Positions 4,349 through 31,678 of a stretch of 64,000 bases of DNA are shown one piece after another; the first letter of the stretch is position 1; each line of letters starts with the position of its first letter. Source of the stretch: Anaerolineales bacterium (GTDB lineage Bacteria; Chloroflexota; Anaerolineae; Anaerolineales; Villigracilaceae). The DNA lies in the NCBI GenBank assembly GCA_050293165.1, contig JBNKMO010000059.1, forward strand, positions 130 to 64,129, read 5' to 3'. The notes under the pieces are model-generated. The model was not told the origin of the DNA. It worked only from the letters and a program-made list of their open reading frames with translations, and did not search any database. Both the position numbers and the translations under genes were made by a program.

Positions 4349-6145
4349 CTAGTACACCCGTTTTTTCGGTTCAAATCTGGTGTAGATCACATCTTTGTAG
4401 TCGAGTTTGACTCCATCGTCGTCAAGCCAGGCTAAGGTATGCTTCATCCATTCATCGTCGAGACGTTCGGGATAGTCGTCGCGAGCGTGGGCACCGCGGC
4501 TCTCTTTGCGTTCGAGGGCAGAAACGGCGGTCACCTCGGCGATATCGAGCAGGTTGCTCAATTCCCAGGCATTGAGCAAATCCATATTGAACTTCTCGCC
4601 TTTGTCGTCGAGCTTGATATTCTTGAAGCGTTTCTTCAGCTCGCGGATCTTTTCGACAGCTTCTTTCATACCTTCTTCCACGCGGAAAACGCCAACGTGT
4701 TCGAACATGACCTCTTTCATTTCGGTAGCGATGTCGGAGAGGCGTTCGTTGCCATCGGATTCGAGTAGTACTTTCAGTTGTTTTTCAACGAATTCGGTGG
4801 GATTGTTGGGAAGCGGAATGTAGTCAGCTTCTTTGGCGTACTCGGCAGCTTTGATGCCGGAATGCTTACCGAAGACGACGATATCGAGCAGGGAGTTGGT
4901 TCCGAGACGATTGGAGCCGTGCACGGAAACACAGGCGTTTTCACCAACGGCGAAGAACCCGGGCAACGGATTACGCTTTTTATCGATGACGACTTGCCCG
5001 TAGTTATCGGTGGGGATACCGCCCATGCCGTAGTGTGCTGTCGGCTGGACAGGCATCGGATCGGTGACGGGGTTCACGCCTAGATAGGTTTCGCAGAAGT
5101 CGATGATATCTGGTAGTTTGCCGAGAATCTCTTCGCCCGTTACCACGTACGGGCTTCCGTCCGGACGGGTGCGTCCGTCGAGGGCAGCGTACTTGTTAAC
5201 GGTTTCAGGCGTCACGTCAAGGTAGAGATAGCGCTTGCCGTTAATCCCATTGCCTTGTTTCATTTCAAGATACATGGCACGGCTGACAACATCACGCGAA
5301 GCGAGTTCCTTGACGCTGGGGGCATTGCCTTCTTTTTCCATGAAGCGTTCGCCCTTGCCATTCAGCAGGATACCGCCTTCGCCGCGCACACCTTCGGTGA
5401 TGAGAATACCCATCTTGTAGATGCCGGTTGGATGGAATTGGAAGAACTCCATATCCTGCGCGGGGATGCCGCGGCGAAGGGCGATGGCAACACCGTCACC
5501 GGTATAGGCATAAGCGTTGGAGGTGATCTCCCAAACACGTCCCCAACCGCCGGTTGCGAAGATAACCGATTTGGCTTGGAAGACGTGCAATTCGCCAGTG
5601 GCGATTTCAAGGGCAACGACGCCAGCCACACCCTCTTCGGTGCGGATCAAATCCATGACCTGGAATTCATCATAGAAGGTGACGTTATTCTTGATACTTT
5701 GTTGGTAGAGGGTTTGCAGGATCATATGACCGGTGCGGTCGGCAGCGTAGCAAGCACGCATGACAGGTTTACCGGTCTCGTTGTTGGTGTGTCCACCGAA
5801 AGGACGCTGGGCAATTTTGCCATCTTTGGTGCGGCTGAAGGGCAAGCCCATATGCTCGAGTTCGTAAACGATCTCGGGCGCTTCTTTGCACATGAATTCG
5901 ATTGCGTCTTGATCGCCGAGATAGTCACTGCCCTTGACGGTATCGTAGGTGTGCCATTCGGGGCGATCTTCTTCAAGGTTGCCGAGGGCAGCACCGATGC
6001 CGCCTTGAGCCGCGCCCGTATGCGAGCGGGCGGGATAAAGTTTCGAGATAACTGCCGTTGAAGCAGATTTTGATGCGTATAAACCGGCCATTAGGCCTGC
6101 GCCACCTGCGCCTACAACAACGACTTCAAATTGATGTTTTTTCAT
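4349..6145 (-). CDS. sdhA: Succinate dehydrogenase flavoprotein subunit
   Basis: [21 protein letters not shown] (FAD fold) and [10 protein letters not shown] (covalent-FAD His region). I moved the start to the ATG at 6145, which has a SD (aggagtg). The track start at 6229 would overlap sdhD. Confidence 0.93.
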
Positions 6146-6156
6146 GAAGACACTCC

Positions 6157-6582
6157 TTAAGAAGCCAAGACAACGTAGACGGCTACCAGTAAAATGAAGA
6201 GCCAGAGAATGAAGATAAAGCCGCGCCAAATGGGGCGACCCCAGCCACTGCTGATGAAATCTTCAACGACGATACGCAGACCGTTGATGCCGTGCGTTAC
6301 GCCAAAGAAGACCGCCAGCATCTGCATGACTTGCCAGAAGCTATTGATGAAGCCGTCGAGGTTGACGATATCGCTGCTAACAACATGGCTGGGATTGGGG
6401 AAGAACATCCAGCGGACGACCGTGTTGATATCGGTTTGGGTGCGGGCACCCATAATGAAGGCGGCAACCAAGCCGATCAATCCAACCAGATAGAGGCCCA
6501 GCGCTGAGAGGCGCATGAAGAGCCACATGATATAGTCGAGACTGAAACCGCGTTTTGCTACTGTTCGTGAACTCATATCCAT
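6157..6582 (-). CDS. sdhD: Succinate dehydrogenase hydrophobic membrane anchor subunit
   Basis: A 141-aa protein with 3 TM helices, positioned between sdhC and sdhA. Confidence 0.7.
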
Positions 6583-6588
6583 ATCCTC

Positions 6589-6975
6589 CTAGAGACCCAG
6601 TGTGCTTTTGAGCACAGCGAAGAGGATCAGACCATACAAGGGGATAAAAGCAAGCCATTGCAGCCAGATCGCTTCTCGTTGGTGTTCCAGCAACGCAGGC
6701 CACAGGTCAAGGATGGTGACGCGCAATCCGTTGATCGCGTGGAAGATGACCAGGAAGAAGAGCACCAGTTGGAATATCCAGTTTTCGTAAACAATATTGA
6801 TGGCGATTCCAACATCGCTGCCAAATTGCTGGGTGAGGAAATCTGCGATGATGTGGGAACCGACGAAGAATACCATCGCCAAACCGCTAAGGCGGTGTAG
6901 GATCCACGCCCACATAGGTCCGCCCCCTTTATATTTCAGTCCCGTGAAGAAACCAACTTTCCGATTAAGAGCCAT
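6589..6975 (-). CDS. sdhC: Succinate dehydrogenase cytochrome b subunit
   Basis: Three TM helices with conserved His residues. I chose the ATG at 6975, preceded by aggaggcgc. The track start at 7020 adds 15 unlikely residues. Confidence 0.75.
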   Translation of the reverse strand: MALNRKVGFFTGLKYKGGGPMWAWILHRLSGLAMVFFVGSHIIADFLTQQFGSDVGIAINIVYENWIFQLVLFFLVIFHAINGLRVTILDLWPALLEHQREAIWLQWLAFIPLYGLILFAVLKSTLGL

Positions 6976-7325
6976 TTGCGCCTCCTGTGTAGGGATACTT
7001 TCTAATTGCTCCCGCCACAATGCCTAAGATATTTTCCTGCTTTTAAAAAAGAATATCTATTATGCCAGTTATATCATGGTGGAAACGCATTCATTATCCC
7101 ATTGTGACCAAGTCACAGAAAGTGACAATGTACATAGATATTTAGTTTCAGACTTCCTCTAATAAAGATTAAGTAGACCTTTATAATCCTGTAGTCAAAA
7201 ATCAATAAATTTATATTCTTTTGACATCCCCAATCAGGTTTTTGATCTCTGTGGTATTGACTATTGCCGGGGTCATAAGCTATCCAAGAATTTATAGATT
7301 CTAAAGAAAGCCCAAGGAGGTACGC

Positions 7326-7823
7326 ATGGCAAGTTCGCATCGAATAAGCCGGCGGGATTTTGTTAAGGTTACGACTGCGGCGCTTGGTTCTATTATGGGC
7401 GTTGCGATGGGTATTCCGGTGATCGGGTATTTGATTGACCCGGCGTTGAAAGCCCAATCAGGCGAAGCCTGGATTCCGCTCGGACCGCTGGAAAATTTCC
7501 CTATCGGCACGCCAAAAGCTTTTTCTTTTACTCGTTCCAATATCAATGGCTGGGAAAAGACAGTCAACAGCTACGGCGGTTTTGTTTTACGCAAATCTGA
7601 ATCCGAGATGTTGGTACTGTCCAATCGTTGTACCCACTTGAGTTGCAGCGTTAACTGGGTAGAAGCTCGGGGCGAGTATGTTTGCCCTTGTCACGATGCC
7701 CAGTTTGGGGTCGAGGGCGAGGTGCTCGGCGGCCCGCCGCCACATCCGCTTGATCGCTATGAAACCAATGTCGAGGAAGGCACGCTGATGATCCGCTTCC
7801 CCGCAGTTCCATTCGAAGGATAA
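7326..7823 (+). CDS. qcrA: Rieske [2Fe-2S] subunit of the cytochrome bc complex (Tat-exported)
   Basis: Twin-arginine signal SRRDFVKVTTAALG. Rieske boxes CTHLSC and CPCHDAQF. SD aaggagg at 7314-7320. Confidence 0.9.
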   Translation: MASSHRISRRDFVKVTTAALGSIMGVAMGIPVIGYLIDPALKAQSGEAWIPLGPLENFPIGTPKAFSFTRSNINGWEKTVNSYGGFVLRKSESEMLVLSNRCTHLSCSVNWVEARGEYVCPCHDAQFGVEGEVLGGPPPHPLDRYETNVEEGTLMIRFPAVPFEG

Positions 7824-7827
7824 GACT

Positions 7828-8487
7828 ATGTGGCAAAAAATCTATGCTTGGCTGGATGAACGTGTTGGTTTCGACGGCCTCTATAAAAATCTTTTGGATC
7901 GTCCTGAGCCCCACGGGAATTGGTGGAACACGCTCGGGAGCGCCAGCTTGTTTCTGTTTGTGATGCAAGGACTTACCGGGATATTTCTTACCGTTTACTA
8001 CACCCCCTCGCCGGATCACGCTTACGATAGCATTCAGTACATCATGAATGGTGTTGCTTTCGGGTGGCTAATTCGCGGTATCCATCACTGGGGTGCGACG
8101 CTGATGGTCTTGGTGGTCTTTATTCACATGCTGCGTGTTTTCTTCTCAGCATCTTATAAATACCCGCGTGAGTTGACCTGGATGGTGGGTGTTTTCCTTT
8201 TCCTGCTCACGCTTGGGATGGGTTTCACCGGCTACTTGTTACCTTTCAATCAGCGCGCCTATTGGGCAACAGTTGTTGGTACGAATATAGGCGGTGTTGT
8301 TCCGGGCATTGGCGGCTTCATTTTGAAAGCCCTGCGTGGTGGCACGGACGTGAGTGCTCTGACGCTCTCGCGTTTCTTCTCTGCTCATATTTGGATGCTG
8401 CCCGCTGCTTTAGCTGGTCTGATCGGTGTTCACCTGTATCTGATTATGCGTCATGGTGAATCTGCGTATCCCGATGCGGATGATTAA
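7828..8487 (+). CDS. qcrB: Cytochrome b6-type (split) cytochrome b subunit
   Basis: A 219-aa 4-TM protein containing GIHHWGATLMVLVVFIHMLRVFF (heme-ligand histidines). Confidence 0.9.
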   Translation: MWQKIYAWLDERVGFDGLYKNLLDRPEPHGNWWNTLGSASLFLFVMQGLTGIFLTVYYTPSPDHAYDSIQYIMNGVAFGWLIRGIHHWGATLMVLVVFIHMLRVFFSASYKYPRELTWMVGVFLFLLTLGMGFTGYLLPFNQRAYWATVVGTNIGGVVPGIGGFILKALRGGTDVSALTLSRFFSAHIWMLPAALAGLIGVHLYLIMRHGESAYPDADD

Positions 8488-28768: not shown

Positions 28769-28790
28769 AAACACAAACTCAGCTGAATCA

Positions 28791-28822
28791 AAAAGGATTT
28801 ACGCAGTCACGTAAATCCTTTT
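28791..28822. terminator. Bidirectional terminator
   Basis: Stem aaaaggatttacg / cgtaaatcctttt (13 bp, loop cagtca) followed by a T-rich flank. Confidence 0.8.
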
Positions 28823-28831
28823 TCTTTTCCA

Positions 28832-29137
28832 CTACTCAAATTCCTTTTCATAGGCCAGAAAATCTTCCCAGCTCCCATCAGCCTCCACGCTGGGATGCGT
28901 CGCATCGCCCTCCTGTCGACTTGACCACGTTAAATGGATGACGGTATAACGCTCCGGCTCCCCCACATGCCTGACGAGAATATCATCCGTCGCCCCATCT
29001 CGATGCGCAATGACTTCGACATTCCTGCCAAAGAGCAGATGATCGGGCGGTAATTCTTTTTGTAGCTCGCTGTAGAGCCTTTTGCTTTCTGCTTCGCTGG
29101 CGGGGAACCAGCCTGCGGGGAAGTTCTTTGTTTTCAA
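28832..29137 (-). CDS. Hypothetical 101-aa protein
   Basis: Intact ORF 36 nt downstream of the HNH gene on the same strand. No motif recognised. Its composition resembles the host backbone rather than the AT-rich cassette. Confidence 0.55.
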   Translation of the reverse strand: MKTKNFPAGWFPASEAESKRLYSELQKELPPDHLLFGRNVEVIAHRDGATDDILVRHVGEPERYTVIHLTWSSRQEGDATHPSVEADGSWEDFLAYEKEFE

Positions 29138-29173
29138 GTTTAGTTTATTTGGTATATCTTACTGAAAACATCT

Positions 29174-30037
29174 TTAAGTCCCTAGAAAGCCACCATTGCA
29201 AAACCAGTCGCTAGCCACCGCAGCCCGATACATGGCAGCTACCCATGAGTTTTTTTGATCAGCTTCAACACTAATAAGCTCCTCTTGCAAATGAGAACGA
29301 ACAGCTTTTTCACCATTAGCTGTTTGATATAGCCTTGTTAGTCGAGTGCGAATTTCAGCGAGACGACTTCCTGCATTTGATGAAAACAAAGTTGGGAGAT
29401 CTAGTTCTTTTAGGTGCATTTCTACGCGTTGTTTAGCCCCCTGCGACCAATAATTAGGCGGTGATGTAAAATAACGGAATCCTGCTGGAACACCAACTAT
29501 CACTTCTGCTACAAGCCAAATATCGTTATCTATATCATCAAAATAAGGATGGAGAAGCTGCTCTCCTTCTGTAGTTGGATAGTATTCGGCTTTCTTCCCT
29601 TGGCACCAATTACAGACTGGAACCAGATTATTAGGTGTTACAGAATAAATAGGAAAAAAAGTTTTAGGAAGGTAGTGATCAAGGGTGTTTACTGTACCTA
29701 TGCCGCATAAGGGACACTTACCATGTATAGGCGCAGACATGATTTGGTCATAAATGGGGCGTCCCTTTGACGTTTTGGGAACCATTCGGCCTGTATAAAC
29801 TTTGACCATTTCATCCCTTGAGATAGAACCTATTTGGTTGTGAGGCTGCTTTTGGAACAGTTGCTTACCCGTTGCCTTAATGTCATAGTCTTTGGCTTCT
29901 GTGTCTACTTGCTGAACAATGGATTGCAATCGTGCTTTTAGCTGTCCATTTTTGACCATAGAGATACAGGTTTTGAAGACTTCAGTAGCAATAAAAGTCT
30001 TCAAATTTTTATCCTTAGGTAGAGGTAGATGTCTCAT
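29174..30037 (-). CDS. HNH endonuclease, PtuB-like (Septu-like effector)
   Basis: HNH/Zn core GKCPLCGIGTVNTLDHYLPKTFFPIYSVTPNNLVPVCNWCQGKK. About 105 aa of N-terminal and about 130 aa of C-terminal sequence have no motif I recognise. It starts 9 nt after the ATPase stop. AT-rich. Confidence 0.75.
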   Translation of the reverse strand: MRHLPLPKDKNLKTFIATEVFKTCISMVKNGQLKARLQSIVQQVDTEAKDYDIKATGKQLFQKQPHNQIGSISRDEMVKVYTGRMVPKTSKGRPIYDQIMSAPIHGKCPLCGIGTVNTLDHYLPKTFFPIYSVTPNNLVPVCNWCQGKKAEYYPTTEGEQLLHPYFDDIDNDIWLVAEVIVGVPAGFRYFTSPPNYWSQGAKQRVEMHLKELDLPTLFSSNAGSRLAEIRTRLTRLYQTANGEKAVRSHLQEELISVEADQKNSWVAAMYRAAVASDWFCNGGFLGT

Positions 30038-30046
30038 AAGCTGGAG

Positions 30047-31630
30047 TTATTTATCATTATTTAGATACATGCCTCGAAGCACTGCTTTCCCCTCTGCTCC
30101 AAGCTTGCCTTCTAACTGCGCTAGTGCTTCTTCGTAACCGTCTGCATTGTGCCTTAAGTTATTTAAAAGCTGGTGGTAACCTGATTGTGATAGTTCCAAC
30201 TGAAACACTTCTCGACTTAGGATGCCAACACTTTCAGCAAATGTTTCAATTGATGGACGCTCAGCCTTTGAAATTTTCAAAATGCGATTGAGTATCCACA
30301 CACAGGATTTCGGAACTTCTTGTAGGATTATCGGTGAATGGGTTGCTACAATCGCTACTCCATTTCTTTGCACAAGCAATTCAGAAATTGCGCGTGTCAT
30401 GGCCGATAATAACGGAGGATGTAAGTGTGCCTCTGGCTCATCAATCAGTACTAGCGTTCTTTCCTCAACTTTCTCCACAAGTCGCGTTATTGTTAGAAGA
30501 ACAATCTTATGACCTGAACTAAGTGCTTTAAAGGTCTTCAGTACCTTGTCTTGCTCTTCCTGGTTGGAAGGGTTGGCCTCAATGATAGATATTAGTTGAG
30601 CTGCCTTGAATACAGGATCAGACTGGAGAATATTAATCGCGTTTATCCATCTTCTTCGTCTTGAGCCAATACGACACTCTCTTAAGCTATCGACAAATTC
30701 ATGAGCTAGCATATCAGGGGTTTTAGGTTTAATCTTTGCCGTTGGAGATGGACTGTCCCAACCACGAAGTCCAATGTAAGAGAAACCAAGAGTATCAGGT
30801 TCTGGATTTCGATCAGGTAATAAATCTGCTTCATCAAATGCACTAAAGGAAATTGCTACTGCATTAGCAAAAGTGCTACTATGACTTTCTTGTTCGCTAA
30901 ATTCAAATGCGCCAGATTGTCTTTCGAATGCATCCTTTGTAACCAAAGCTTTAGCCATCAGAGAAAGCAATCGTGTTTTTCCTACACCGTTGCGTCCAAT
31001 AATAATATGAACATTTGTGGGAATGGGCGAATTTGGGTCAACGTTAAAATCTAGCTTGAAAGGAGGGGAGCCATCATCTGATCTTTTAGGAGGAAAATAA
31101 GTGAAATTGTAGCGTGTTACGCGTGCGTCCCCACGGGCCATTCGTCGGAATTGTCCCTCAACAGTGCTTTGGGTTACAGAGCGAAGCAATGACTCTCTAG
31201 TGACATCTTCGTCCTTAGCCCACTCCCAACGTTCTTCATCCCATGCCACATCACATAAGCAAATTAAAATTTGTTCACGAATTGAATCTCCAAGAGTAGC
31301 TAGTTTTCCGTAGTATTCTTCATCTTGACCAACTGAAAAAAAGTTATCCCTCAATTGATAAAAGCTAGTCGGAACATTTGGTCTGCGATGTCCTGGCAGG
31401 GTGTCTTTCAGTACTGATTGGGGCTTTAATCCGCGTTCTCCGATTTTTACTTGTCCAATTCTGTGGGGCTCGTTATTATGATCAATAATTGTTAGATAGA
31501 ATTGGGTACTATACTTTCCCCAATCATCCCAGTCGTCGCGGTTTAGGTATGCTGACCATCCTTGCGCACCATGAGGGATTTTCGCGCGTGGCGAAATGAC
31601 ATGAAATGGTATTGGTTTAGGCAGATTCAT
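30047..31630 (-). CDS. ABC/AAA_21-type ATPase, PtuA-like, with an unassigned N-terminal domain of about 210 aa
   Basis: Walker A GRNGVGKT at aa 212-219 (nt 30974-30997), signature-like LSSGHK, Walker B LVLIDEPEAHLHP, and H-loop ATHSP. Residues 1-210 match nothing I recognise. AT-rich. Confidence 0.8.
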   Translation of the reverse strand: MNLPKPIPFHVISPRAKIPHGAQGWSAYLNRDDWDDWGKYSTQFYLTIIDHNNEPHRIGQVKIGERGLKPQSVLKDTLPGHRRPNVPTSFYQLRDNFFSVGQDEEYYGKLATLGDSIREQILICLCDVAWDEERWEWAKDEDVTRESLLRSVTQSTVEGQFRRMARGDARVTRYNFTYFPPKRSDDGSPPFKLDFNVDPNSPIPTNVHIIIGRNGVGKTRLLSLMAKALVTKDAFERQSGAFEFSEQESHSSTFANAVAISFSAFDEADLLPDRNPEPDTLGFSYIGLRGWDSPSPTAKIKPKTPDMLAHEFVDSLRECRIGSRRRRWINAINILQSDPVFKAAQLISIIEANPSNQEEQDKVLKTFKALSSGHKIVLLTITRLVEKVEERTLVLIDEPEAHLHPPLLSAMTRAISELLVQRNGVAIVATHSPIILQEVPKSCVWILNRILKISKAERPSIETFAESVGILSREVFQLELSQSGYHQLLNNLRHNADGYEEALAQLEGKLGAEGKAVLRGMYLNNDK

Positions 31631-31678
31631 ATTTTACCTAGATAGGATTTCGTCAAAAATTAGTGTAGCTTTCACTTG

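What the first reader, a model, noticed from the sequence alone, without database searches (positions are those of the whole stretch)
31016..31630. Unassigned ~205-aa N-terminal domain in front of the ATPase core
Residues 1-~205 precede the P-loop (MNLPKPIPFHVISPRAKIPHGAQGWSAYLNRDDWDDWGKYSTQFYLTIIDHNNEPHRIGQVKIGERGL...). They are Trp/Asp-rich and carry no motif I can place. In ABC-type defence ATPases the P-loop is normally within the first ~40 residues. An extra N-terminal module is therefore a plausible sensor or target-recognition domain. It is the most novel part of the cassette.
Basis: inference. Interest (0 to 1): 0.65.

Follow-up and report, generated by a model that had tools for sequence, protein, structure and literature searches.

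The report
Lambda Ea59-type N-terminal domain
The unexplained front end of this ATPase is real and strongly conserved, has no recognisable fold relative, and is the hallmark of a widespread two-gene ATPase-plus-nuclease cassette whose oldest known member is the poorly understood ea59-ea31 gene pair of phage lambda.

Summary
The 527-aa protein (30047-31630, minus strand) has its Walker A motif at residues 212-219. Residues about 171-205 are already the first ABC strands, so the extra module is about 1-170.

The start codon is confirmed by hundreds of full-length homologues. The module folds confidently in AlphaFold2 (pLDDT 91). It has no match in Pfam, NCBIfam, PDB sequences, PDB folds or BFVD.

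It is not new to this cassette. It is the family signature of PADLOC candidate PDC-M01A and of phrog_8066. Its oldest known member is phage lambda Ea59 (39% identical end to end). The downstream HNH gene matches lambda Ea31 and PDC-M01B.

In 57 of 57 complete loci from many phyla the domain sits on the same ATPase, followed directly by the HNH gene. The ATPase core is structurally closest to Septu and retron PtuA.

The domain evolves no faster than the ATPase N-half. Nine residues are invariant (D32 W34 D36 T42 Y107 D127 S147 L148 R150). That argues for a conserved ligand or partner site, not a fast-evolving sensor of phage proteins.

The function is still unknown. My best guess, with low confidence, is that it binds a cofactor such as single-stranded DNA. 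This is a new member of a known but uncharacterised family.

The parts
31121..31630 (-). Family-specific N-terminal domain (aa 1-170) of the Ea59-type ATPase. Aa 1-102 form a beta-rich subdomain and aa 103-168 a bundle of five helices.
   Evidence: AlphaFold2 gives pLDDT 91.3 and pTM 0.81. No match in Pfam, NCBIfam, PDB sequences, PDB folds or BFVD. Matches profile positions 3-186 of PDC-M01A at 6e-54 and phrog_8066. Matches lambda Ea59 aa 2-190.
31511..31537 (-). The DDWDDWGKY loop (aa 32-40) between strands 2 and 3. D32, W34 and D36 are invariant.
   Evidence: Invariant in 58 of 58 sequences, lambda Ea59 included. Position.
31181..31330 (-). Second conserved patch: GQDEEYY (aa 101-107), D127, and ESLLR (aa 146-150). 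Invariant residues are Y107, D127, S147, L148 and R150.
30050..31120 (-). ABC-type ATPase core plus C-terminal helical region (aa 171-527). Motifs: Walker A 30974-30997, signature LSSGHK 30506-30523, Walker B LVLIDEPE 30431-30454, H-loop ATHSP 30332-30346.
   Evidence: Pfam AAA_21 at 7.4e-14 and AAA_15 at 8e-13. Foldseek best hits are retron I-A PtuA (9n6b, 3e-9) and E. coli Septu PtuA (8eea, 5e-7). Motif positions.
29174..30037 (-). Partner HNH (His-Me finger) nuclease of 287 aa, of the Ea31 / PDC-M01B type. It starts 9 nt after the ATPase stop codon.
   Evidence: PDC-M01B at 1.9e-97. phrog_10378 'HNH endonuclease' at 2.4e-64. 27% identical end to end to lambda Ea31, E 4e-34. Invariant C108, C111, D120, H121, N137, C142, C145 and H163. 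Pfam HNH matches 21 of 26 family members.

Best explanation
The segment is the N-terminal, family-defining domain (about 170 aa) of a phage-lambda-Ea59-type ABC ATPase. Together with the adjacent Ea31-type HNH nuclease, this ATPase forms a mobile two-gene, Septu-like ATPase-nuclease cassette, listed as PADLOC candidate PDC-M01.

Shown here:
- The domain is real, autonomously folded and always fused to this ATPase.
- It is always followed by the HNH gene and is inherited together with it.
- It carries an invariant cluster of polar and aromatic residues (D32, W34, D36, T42, Y107, D127, S147, R150) on loops and helix ends.

Inferred: that cluster is a binding site for a conserved ligand or partner, not a variable recognition surface. 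The most likely role is to bind the activating cofactor and pass that signal to the ABC head. ATP-dependent conformational change would then switch on the HNH nuclease held by the ATPase C-terminus. For the lambda enzyme the cofactor is reported to be single-stranded DNA. The result would be cleavage of nucleic acid in an infected cell.

Confidence is about 0.9 for the identity part and about 0.3 for the mechanism.
For: Identity:
- PDC-M01A matches full length at 4.5e-190, and PDC-M01B at 1.9e-97.
- Lambda Ea59 is 39% identical over 7-527 (E 3e-109), and lambda Ea31 27% identical (E 4e-34).
- Lambda Ea59 and Ea31 themselves score 3.9e-201 and 5.8e-113 on the same models.
- In 57 of 57 complete loci the N-domain ATPase is directly followed by the HNH gene.
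- The ATPase core is closest to PtuA structures.

Domain reality: pLDDT is 91 alone, and pTM is 0.84 in the full-length model.

Conserved-site argument:
- Mean pairwise identity is 0.41 for the N-domain, equal to the ABC N-half and above the 0.37 of the HNH partner.
- Nine residues are invariant in 58 sequences, lambda included.
- Distances in the N-domain and in the partner co-vary with r about 0.8, as for the rest of the protein. The cassette therefore moves as a unit without domain swapping.

Cofactor idea:
[quoted passage not shown] 1982).
- ea59 is listed as 'ATP-dependent endonuclease' in PMC10695390.
- That this 1982 enzyme is the Ea59+Ea31 pair rests on my own recollection.

Precedent: the N-terminal extension of retron Ec78 PtuA binds the regulating RT and ncRNA, and is absent from stand-alone PtuA (PMC12819146).
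Against: No ligand, partner or activity of the domain was tested.

The domain is acidic (median pI 5.2). That is unusual for a nucleic-acid binder.

The ABC head itself could bind the DNA cofactor, as in the Rad50/SMC/RecF family. That would leave the N-domain free for another role.

No fold relative was found to support any function.

No defence phenotype is on record for PDC-M01 or lambda ea59-ea31 in the papers I could search.
Confidence: 0.45

Rival explanations
1. The domain is a sensor for a phage protein trigger. Binding of a viral protein to the N-domain would release or activate the HNH nuclease, as PARIS AriA and Septu are thought to respond to phage proteins.
For: The domain sits on the outside of a PtuA-like ATPase. 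[quoted passage not shown] An acidic, Trp-rich surface suits protein-protein contacts.
Against: There is no accelerated divergence. Identity is 0.41, equal to the ABC N-half. Invariant polar residues persist from an Anaerolineales genome to coliphage lambda. Homologues that are 55-77% identical occur in hosts of different phyla with unrelated phages.
Confidence: 0.2
2. The domain is a structural module. It would drive oligomerisation of the ATPase, or dock or cage the HNH subunit to keep it inactive until ATP turnover.
For: The full-length model has pTM 0.84, so the domain is predicted in a fixed position on the ATPase. N-domain distances correlate with those of the partner (r 0.77-0.82). In Septu and retron systems the activity is controlled by assembly state.
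Against: [quoted passage not shown] After controlling for the ATPase core the partial correlation with the partner is weak (0.22-0.27). Invariant Asp, Thr, Ser and Arg residues are more typical of a ligand site than of an interface.
Confidence: 0.2
3. The domain is a second catalytic centre, for example a metal-dependent hydrolase built on the invariant acidic residues D32, D36 and D127 with K62 and R150.
For: The invariant acidic cluster and the nearly invariant K62.
Against: A pLDDT-91 model matched no nuclease or hydrolase fold. There is no PD-(D/E)xK pattern: the residue two before K62 varies among Q, S, D and N. The HNH partner already supplies an intact nuclease site.
Confidence: 0.1
4. 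The 'domain' is an annotation artefact, and the true protein starts near the P-loop.
For: Gene callers sometimes produce short forms (P0310 at 384 aa, and PADLOC model PDLC04236 at 388 aa).
Against: P0310's locus holds an intact 528-aa ORF. Full-length coverage is seen in more than 100 homologues. Only TTG93, GTG128, TTG148 and ATG164 occur upstream of the P-loop. The region is conserved at protein level and folds confidently.
Confidence: 0.01

Closest known systems
Phage lambda Ea59 (ATPase) and Ea31 (HNH), the b-region gene pair next to attP
   Same: Same two genes in the same order, tightly coupled (4-bp overlap in lambda, 9-nt gap here). Homology runs end to end: 39% for the ATPase and 27% for the nuclease. 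The same N-terminal domain is present, with D32, W34, D36, T42, Y107, D127, S147, L148 and R150 conserved.
   Different: Lambda's copy is phage-borne. This one sits in a chromosomal slot of an Anaerolineales genome, with no phage genes among the called genes of the 21.6-kb locus L072 around the cassette. Sequence is diverged: D35 is N and W37 is Y in lambda. The biochemistry (an ATP-dependent and ssDNA-dependent endonuclease) is known only for lambda, only from 1982, and the role of the N-domain was never addressed.
PADLOC phage-defence candidate PDC-M01 (A+B), from 'guilt by embedding' (Payne et al., bioRxiv 10.1101/2024.01.29.577857)
   Same: Both proteins match the models over their full length (4.5e-190 and 1.9e-97), and the genes are adjacent on one strand.
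   Different: PDC-M01 is a prediction and no phenotype is reported. The cassette here is not embedded in an RM, BREX or DISARM locus. It lies alone between guaA and host genes.
Septu (PtuA ABC ATPase + PtuB HNH) and the PtuAB effectors of type I-A retrons
   Same: Two-gene architecture of an ABC ATPase followed by an HNH nuclease. The ATPase core is structurally closest to PtuA (9n6b at 3e-9, 8eea at 5e-7). One PADLOC 'PtuA1' model (PDLC00282) matches full length.
   Different: PtuA has its P-loop near the N-terminus: K43 in Septu EcB88, and the Walker A region aligns at residues 87-111 of retron PtuA. Neither has this domain, and Foldseek of the domain alone found nothing in PDB, which contains these PtuA chains. 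NCBIfam PtuA scores 46.7 against a cut-off of 500. The HNH partner is longer (287 aa against about 215-230) and is related to PtuB only at E 0.16-1.1 over the HNH core.
N-terminal extension (NTE) of retron Ec78 PtuA
   Same: An extra N-terminal element on a PtuA-like ATPase that serves regulation. It binds the RT and ncRNA that hold the effector in check (PMC12819146).
   Different: The retron NTE is about 85 aa, starts with an alpha-helix that wedges between the RT Finger and Thumb domains, and has no detectable similarity to this domain. The partner it binds (a retron RT) is absent here.

Membership tests
Lambda Ea59/Ea31 family (= PADLOC PDC-M01, phrog_8066 + phrog_10378) | ATPase homologous to Ea59 / PDC-M01A over its full length, N-terminal domain included | tested here: met
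   BLASTP against lambda Ea59 gives 39% identity over 7-527 with E 3e-109. PDC-M01A matches 9-526 to profile 3-506 of 510 at 4.5e-190. phrog_8066 matches 20-526 at 1.5e-139.
Lambda Ea59/Ea31 family (= PADLOC PDC-M01, phrog_8066 + phrog_10378) | Adjacent downstream gene on the same strand encoding an Ea31 / PDC-M01B-type HNH protein with an intact CxxC...DH...N...CxxC motif | tested here: met
   27% identity end to end to Ea31, E 4e-34. PDC-M01B at 1.9e-97. Invariant C108, C111, D120, H121, N137, C142 and C145. The same pairing is seen in 57 of 57 complete loci.
Lambda Ea59/Ea31 family (= PADLOC PDC-M01, phrog_8066 + phrog_10378) | Endonuclease activity dependent on ATP and single-stranded DNA | not testable with these tools
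   Known only from the literature on lambda (PMC5241400 citing Benchimol 1982; PMC10695390). Assignment of that enzyme to Ea59+Ea31 is from my own recollection.
Lambda Ea59/Ea31 family (= PADLOC PDC-M01, phrog_8066 + phrog_10378) | Anti-phage defence phenotype | not testable with these tools
   No paper in the searchable library reports one. PDC systems are predictions.
Septu (PtuA/PtuB) | Two-gene operon of an ABC ATPase followed by an HNH nuclease | tested here: met
Septu (PtuA/PtuB) | ATPase of the PtuA structural type | tested here: met
   Foldseek of the full-length model gives retron PtuA 9n6b at 3e-9 and E. coli Septu PtuA 8eea at 5e-7, 8ee4 and 8sux, all at probability 1.0. TM-scores are low (0.26-0.32), which could reflect different domain arrangement.
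Septu (PtuA/PtuB) | Sequence membership of curated PtuA (NCBIfam NF041760) and PtuB (TIGR02646) models | tested here: not met
   NF041760 scores 46.7 bits against a cut-off of 500 and covers only aa 389-472. The HNH protein has no TIGR02646 hit. A profile of the partner hits PDB PtuB chains only at E 0.16-1.1.
Septu (PtuA/PtuB) | P-loop close to the N-terminus, with no large N-terminal domain | tested here: not met
   Walker A lies at aa 212-219, against K43 in Septu EcB88.

The most novel reading that the evidence does not exclude
The Ea59-type N-terminal domain is a previously unrecognised protein fold. It acts as the infection sensor of a widespread Septu-like immune system, for example by binding single-stranded DNA or another replication or recombination intermediate. 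Phage lambda's long-orphan ea59-ea31 genes would then be a prophage-encoded defence system of this type.
Probability: 0.3. Interest if true: 0.65.

Novelty: new member of a known kind. Interest (0 to 1): 0.42.

Why it matters
The domain marks a very large family, with over a thousand clusters at 50% identity across many bacterial phyla, on plasmids and in phage lambda itself. It has no domain-database entry, no solved structure and no assigned role.

Showing what it binds would explain how this Septu-like branch is switched on. It would also give a function to two of the last unexplained early genes of lambda.

For this window alone it adds little. The window simply holds one more copy of that cassette, inserted in a variable slot next to guaA.

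Tried and rejected
- **Curated family and structure libraries.** Pfam, NCBIfam and PDB-sequence searches of the domain, as single sequences and as profiles, found nothing meaningful. The best hits were a serpin at E 0.18 and CntL at E 0.18, which I treat as chance.
- **Fold searches.** Foldseek of the pLDDT-91 model gave a best E of 0.9 against PDB and 0.42 against BFVD, with TM-scores of 0.24 or less. No fold could be assigned.
- **PD-(D/E)xK nuclease reading of D32...xVK62.** Rejected. The residue two before K62 is not a conserved acid, and there is no fold match.
- **Toprim, OB or SH3-like readings.** Considered from the strand order only and not supported by any search.
- **WonAB (Vibrio cholerae).** Checked as a possible relative and rejected. 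WonA has K34 and WonB is a PD-(D/E)xK protein.
- **Short homologues lacking the domain.** The one I traced was a gene-call artefact.
- **The 101-aa ORF downstream (28832-29137) as a third component.** Rejected. It is absent from all 71 related loci. It is a host gene, conserved at 88% in a relative that lacks the cassette.
- **Flanking repeats or att-like sites around the cassette.** None were convincing.
- **Co-evolution test between the N-domain and the HNH subdomains.** Uninformative beyond showing joint inheritance.
- **Papers not held in the library.** Krishnan et al. 2020 (ABC ATPase classification) and Li et al. 2024 (Septu structure) could not be read.

Full report
**1. The observation**

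- Its single Walker A motif, GRNGVGKT, is at aa 212-219. A signature-like LSSGHK lies at 370-375, Walker B LVLIDEPE at 393-400 and an H-loop ATHSP at 429-433.
- Aa 1-205 hold 6 of the 9 tryptophans and are richer in Asp (8.8% against 4.0%).
- Upstream of the P-loop the only internal start-type codons are TTG93, GTG128, TTG148 and ATG164.

Homologues settle the start codon.
- The 120 best relatives are 55-77% identical, and most cover 98-100% of the protein at lengths of 520-535 aa.
- An exhaustive search with aa 1-205 alone found 1139 cluster representatives at E<=1e-3.
- Of the best 150, 148 have the domain within their first 35 residues. The 71 proteins of at least 480 aa have a median length of 520 aa.
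- One 'short' relative, P0310 (384 aa), turned out to be a truncated gene call over an intact 528-aa ORF.

**2. Anatomy**

AlphaFold2 on aa 1-205 with a 48-sequence alignment gave pLDDT 91.3 and pTM 0.81.
- Strands lie at 9-12, 26-31, 43-49, 55-65 and 97-101.
- Five helices span 104-165.
- Two further strands lie at 174-179 and 193-197.

In the full-length model (pLDDT 85.3, pTM 0.84) those last two strands continue into strand 207-211 and the P-loop helix. They are therefore the usual N-terminal strands of an ABC ATPase. The extra module is aa 1-170 (nt 31121-31630), not 1-205.

**3. What the domain resembles**

Nothing known.
- Pfam and NCBIfam gave no hit for this protein, for ten relatives or for lambda Ea59's N-terminus.
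- PDB sequence searches with the sequence and with a profile gave only chance-level hits.
- Foldseek gave a best E of 0.9 against PDB and 0.42 against BFVD.
- No AlphaFold DB or HHpred search was possible. 'New fold' therefore remains unproven.

**4. What the cassette is**

*PADLOC and PHROG models.*
- The whole ATPase matches PDC-M01A (4.5e-190) and one 'PtuA1' model, PDLC00282 (7.8e-168). In both, the N-domain aligns to profile positions 3-186.
- The gene 9 nt downstream (29174-30037, 287 aa) matches PDC-M01B (1.9e-97) and phrog_10378 'HNH endonuclease'.
- That downstream protein keeps an invariant CxxC...DH...N...CxxC His-Me finger.
- PDC systems are 'guilt-by-embedding' predictions and have no reported phenotype.

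*Phage lambda.*
- A tblastn search of phage genomes with the N-domain hit ea59 of phage lambda.
- Lambda Ea59 (525 aa) is 39% identical to this ATPase from residue 7 to 527 (E 3e-109).
- Lambda Ea31 (296 aa, overlapping ea59 by 4 bp) is 27% identical end to end to the HNH protein (E 4e-34).
- Both lambda proteins are themselves top matches to PDC-M01A and PDC-M01B.

*ATPase core.* It is structurally closest to retron I-A PtuA and E. coli Septu PtuA. Curated PtuA and PtuB models are not met, and the HNH partner is only marginally PtuB-like. So the cassette works like Septu but belongs to the Ea59/Ea31 family.

**5. Distribution and linkage**

A genome scan gave 71 loci.
- Phyla represented include Pseudomonadota, Verrucomicrobiota, Planctomycetota, Actinomycetota, Bacillota, Cyanobacteriota, Campylobacterota, Bacteroidota and Chloroflexota.
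- All 57 loci with complete genes have the N-domain on the same ATPase, immediately followed by the HNH gene.
- The domain also lies on 71 plasmid records.
- The only exception was L062. There the first 62 aa are fused in frame to a truncated GajB helicase, which looks like a rearrangement scar or an assembly chimera.
- A weak, repeated match of aa 26-102 to the C-terminus of PADLOC PDC-S34 (5 of 10 members, best 3.3e-4) is the only hint of the beta-subdomain elsewhere.

**6. Evolutionary behaviour**

Mean pairwise identity across the 57 cassettes:

| Region | Identity |
|---|---|
| N-domain, beta half | 0.41 |
| N-domain, helical half | 0.41 |
| ABC N-half | 0.41 |
| Insert | 0.44 |
| ABC C-half | 0.69 |
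| C-terminal region | 0.48 |
| HNH protein | 0.37 |

- The domain is not fast-evolving.
- D32, W34, D36, T42, Y107, D127, S147, L148 and R150 are invariant in 58 sequences, lambda included.
- These residues lie on loops and helix ends between the two subdomains. The domain is acidic, with a median pI of 5.2.
- Distances in the domain and in the HNH protein co-vary like the rest of the ATPase (r about 0.8). The cassette is therefore inherited as one unit.

**7. Mechanism**

Established knowledge of the relatives:
- In PtuAB the ATPase oligomer holds the HNH nuclease by its C-terminal extension and controls it.
- The retron version has an N-terminal extension that binds the regulating RT and ncRNA (PMC12819146).
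[quoted passage not shown] 1982).
- ea59 is listed as an ATP-dependent endonuclease that is non-essential for lambda (PMC10695390).
- That this enzyme consists of Ea59 plus Ea31 is my recollection and is not verified here.

On this basis I propose that the N-domain is a conserved ligand-binding regulatory module, most plausibly the site for the activating cofactor. It would couple cofactor binding to the ABC head and hence to HNH cleavage. This is inference, with a probability of about 0.3.

Rivals are a phage-protein sensor, an assembly or HNH-docking module, and a second catalytic site. They are listed separately with the evidence for and against each.

**8. Genomic setting**

- The window is from an Anaerolineales metagenome-assembled genome.
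- The cassette has 41-42% GC, against 56-57% in the adjacent guaA.
- The closest relative, L076, has guaA 90% identical and its DUF2812, PadR and GNAT neighbours 96-99% identical. It lacks the cassette. In the same slot it carries an unrelated 333-aa ORF with no PADLOC hit.
- The cassette is thus accessory cargo in a variable slot, with no other defence genes nearby.

**9. Verdict**

The domain is real, unassigned and the distinctive feature of the cassette.
- It is also the hallmark of an already catalogued, very widespread family that includes lambda Ea59. Its conservation does not fit a variable recognition module.
- Novelty: a new member of a known but uncharacterised kind.
- Interest is moderate. 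It rests mainly on the link to lambda and on the absence of any fold relative.

Noticed in passing
L075 (phage lambda NC_001416) 4998-7462; window 29174-31630: Lambda's orphan b-region genes ea59 and ea31 are full-length members of PADLOC candidate PDC-M01, with a Septu-like architecture. No paper in the searchable library holds ea59 together with HNH in this sense, and none of the listed Septu/PtuA papers mentions ea59.
   Followed up: partly
window 31631-31678 and 28832-29173; L076 7603-8900: The slot between guaA and the 101-aa host ORF is variable. The closest relative (guaA 90% identical, downstream genes 96-99%) carries an unrelated 333-aa ORF with no PADLOC hit instead of the ATPase-HNH cassette.
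   Followed up: partly
window 28832-29137 (-): This 101-aa ORF just downstream of the HNH gene has no family hit and was not called as a gene in the public record. It is nevertheless conserved (88%) in the relative L076, so it is probably a real host gene and not part of the cassette.
   Followed up: partly
window 28790-28823: A perfect 14-nt inverted repeat (AAAAAGGATTTACG / CGTAAATCCTTTTT, 6-nt loop) lies between convergent genes. It is a likely bidirectional terminator that ends the cassette's transcript.
   Followed up: no
L062 5989-7614: A chimeric 541-aa ORF. The first 62 aa are 68% identical to the N-domain and are fused in frame to a GajB (Gabija helicase) lacking its first 80 profile positions. 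This is a rearrangement scar in a defence island or a metagenome-assembly chimera.
   Followed up: partly
L074 1-5155: A 77%-identical homologue of the cassette lies directly downstream of a CBASS-like set (SMODS, ThiF/E1-like and a JAB-like ORF) and next to IS66 fragments. In that genome the cassette is in a defence island, unlike here.
   Followed up: no
window 31325-31552 (aa 26-102): The beta-subdomain gives a weak but repeated match to the C-terminal part (profile positions 314-376 of 416) of PADLOC single-gene candidate PDC-S34. Five of 10 family members match, best E 3.3e-4. This may be a second context for the module.
   Followed up: no
L032-L034 (Mesorhizobium) 5947-7104; L026 (Shigella flexneri) 7524-8243: These look like decayed copies. 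The Mesorhizobium ATPases are 385 aa and have lost most of the ABC C-half while the HNH gene is intact. The Shigella HNH gene is shortened to 239 aa.
   Followed up: no
window 24989-25903 and 26084-27010 (-): Two tandem paralogous multi-pass membrane proteins of 304 and 308 aa (one with a weak DUF7544 match), about 40% identical. The pair is conserved in the relative L076.
   Followed up: no
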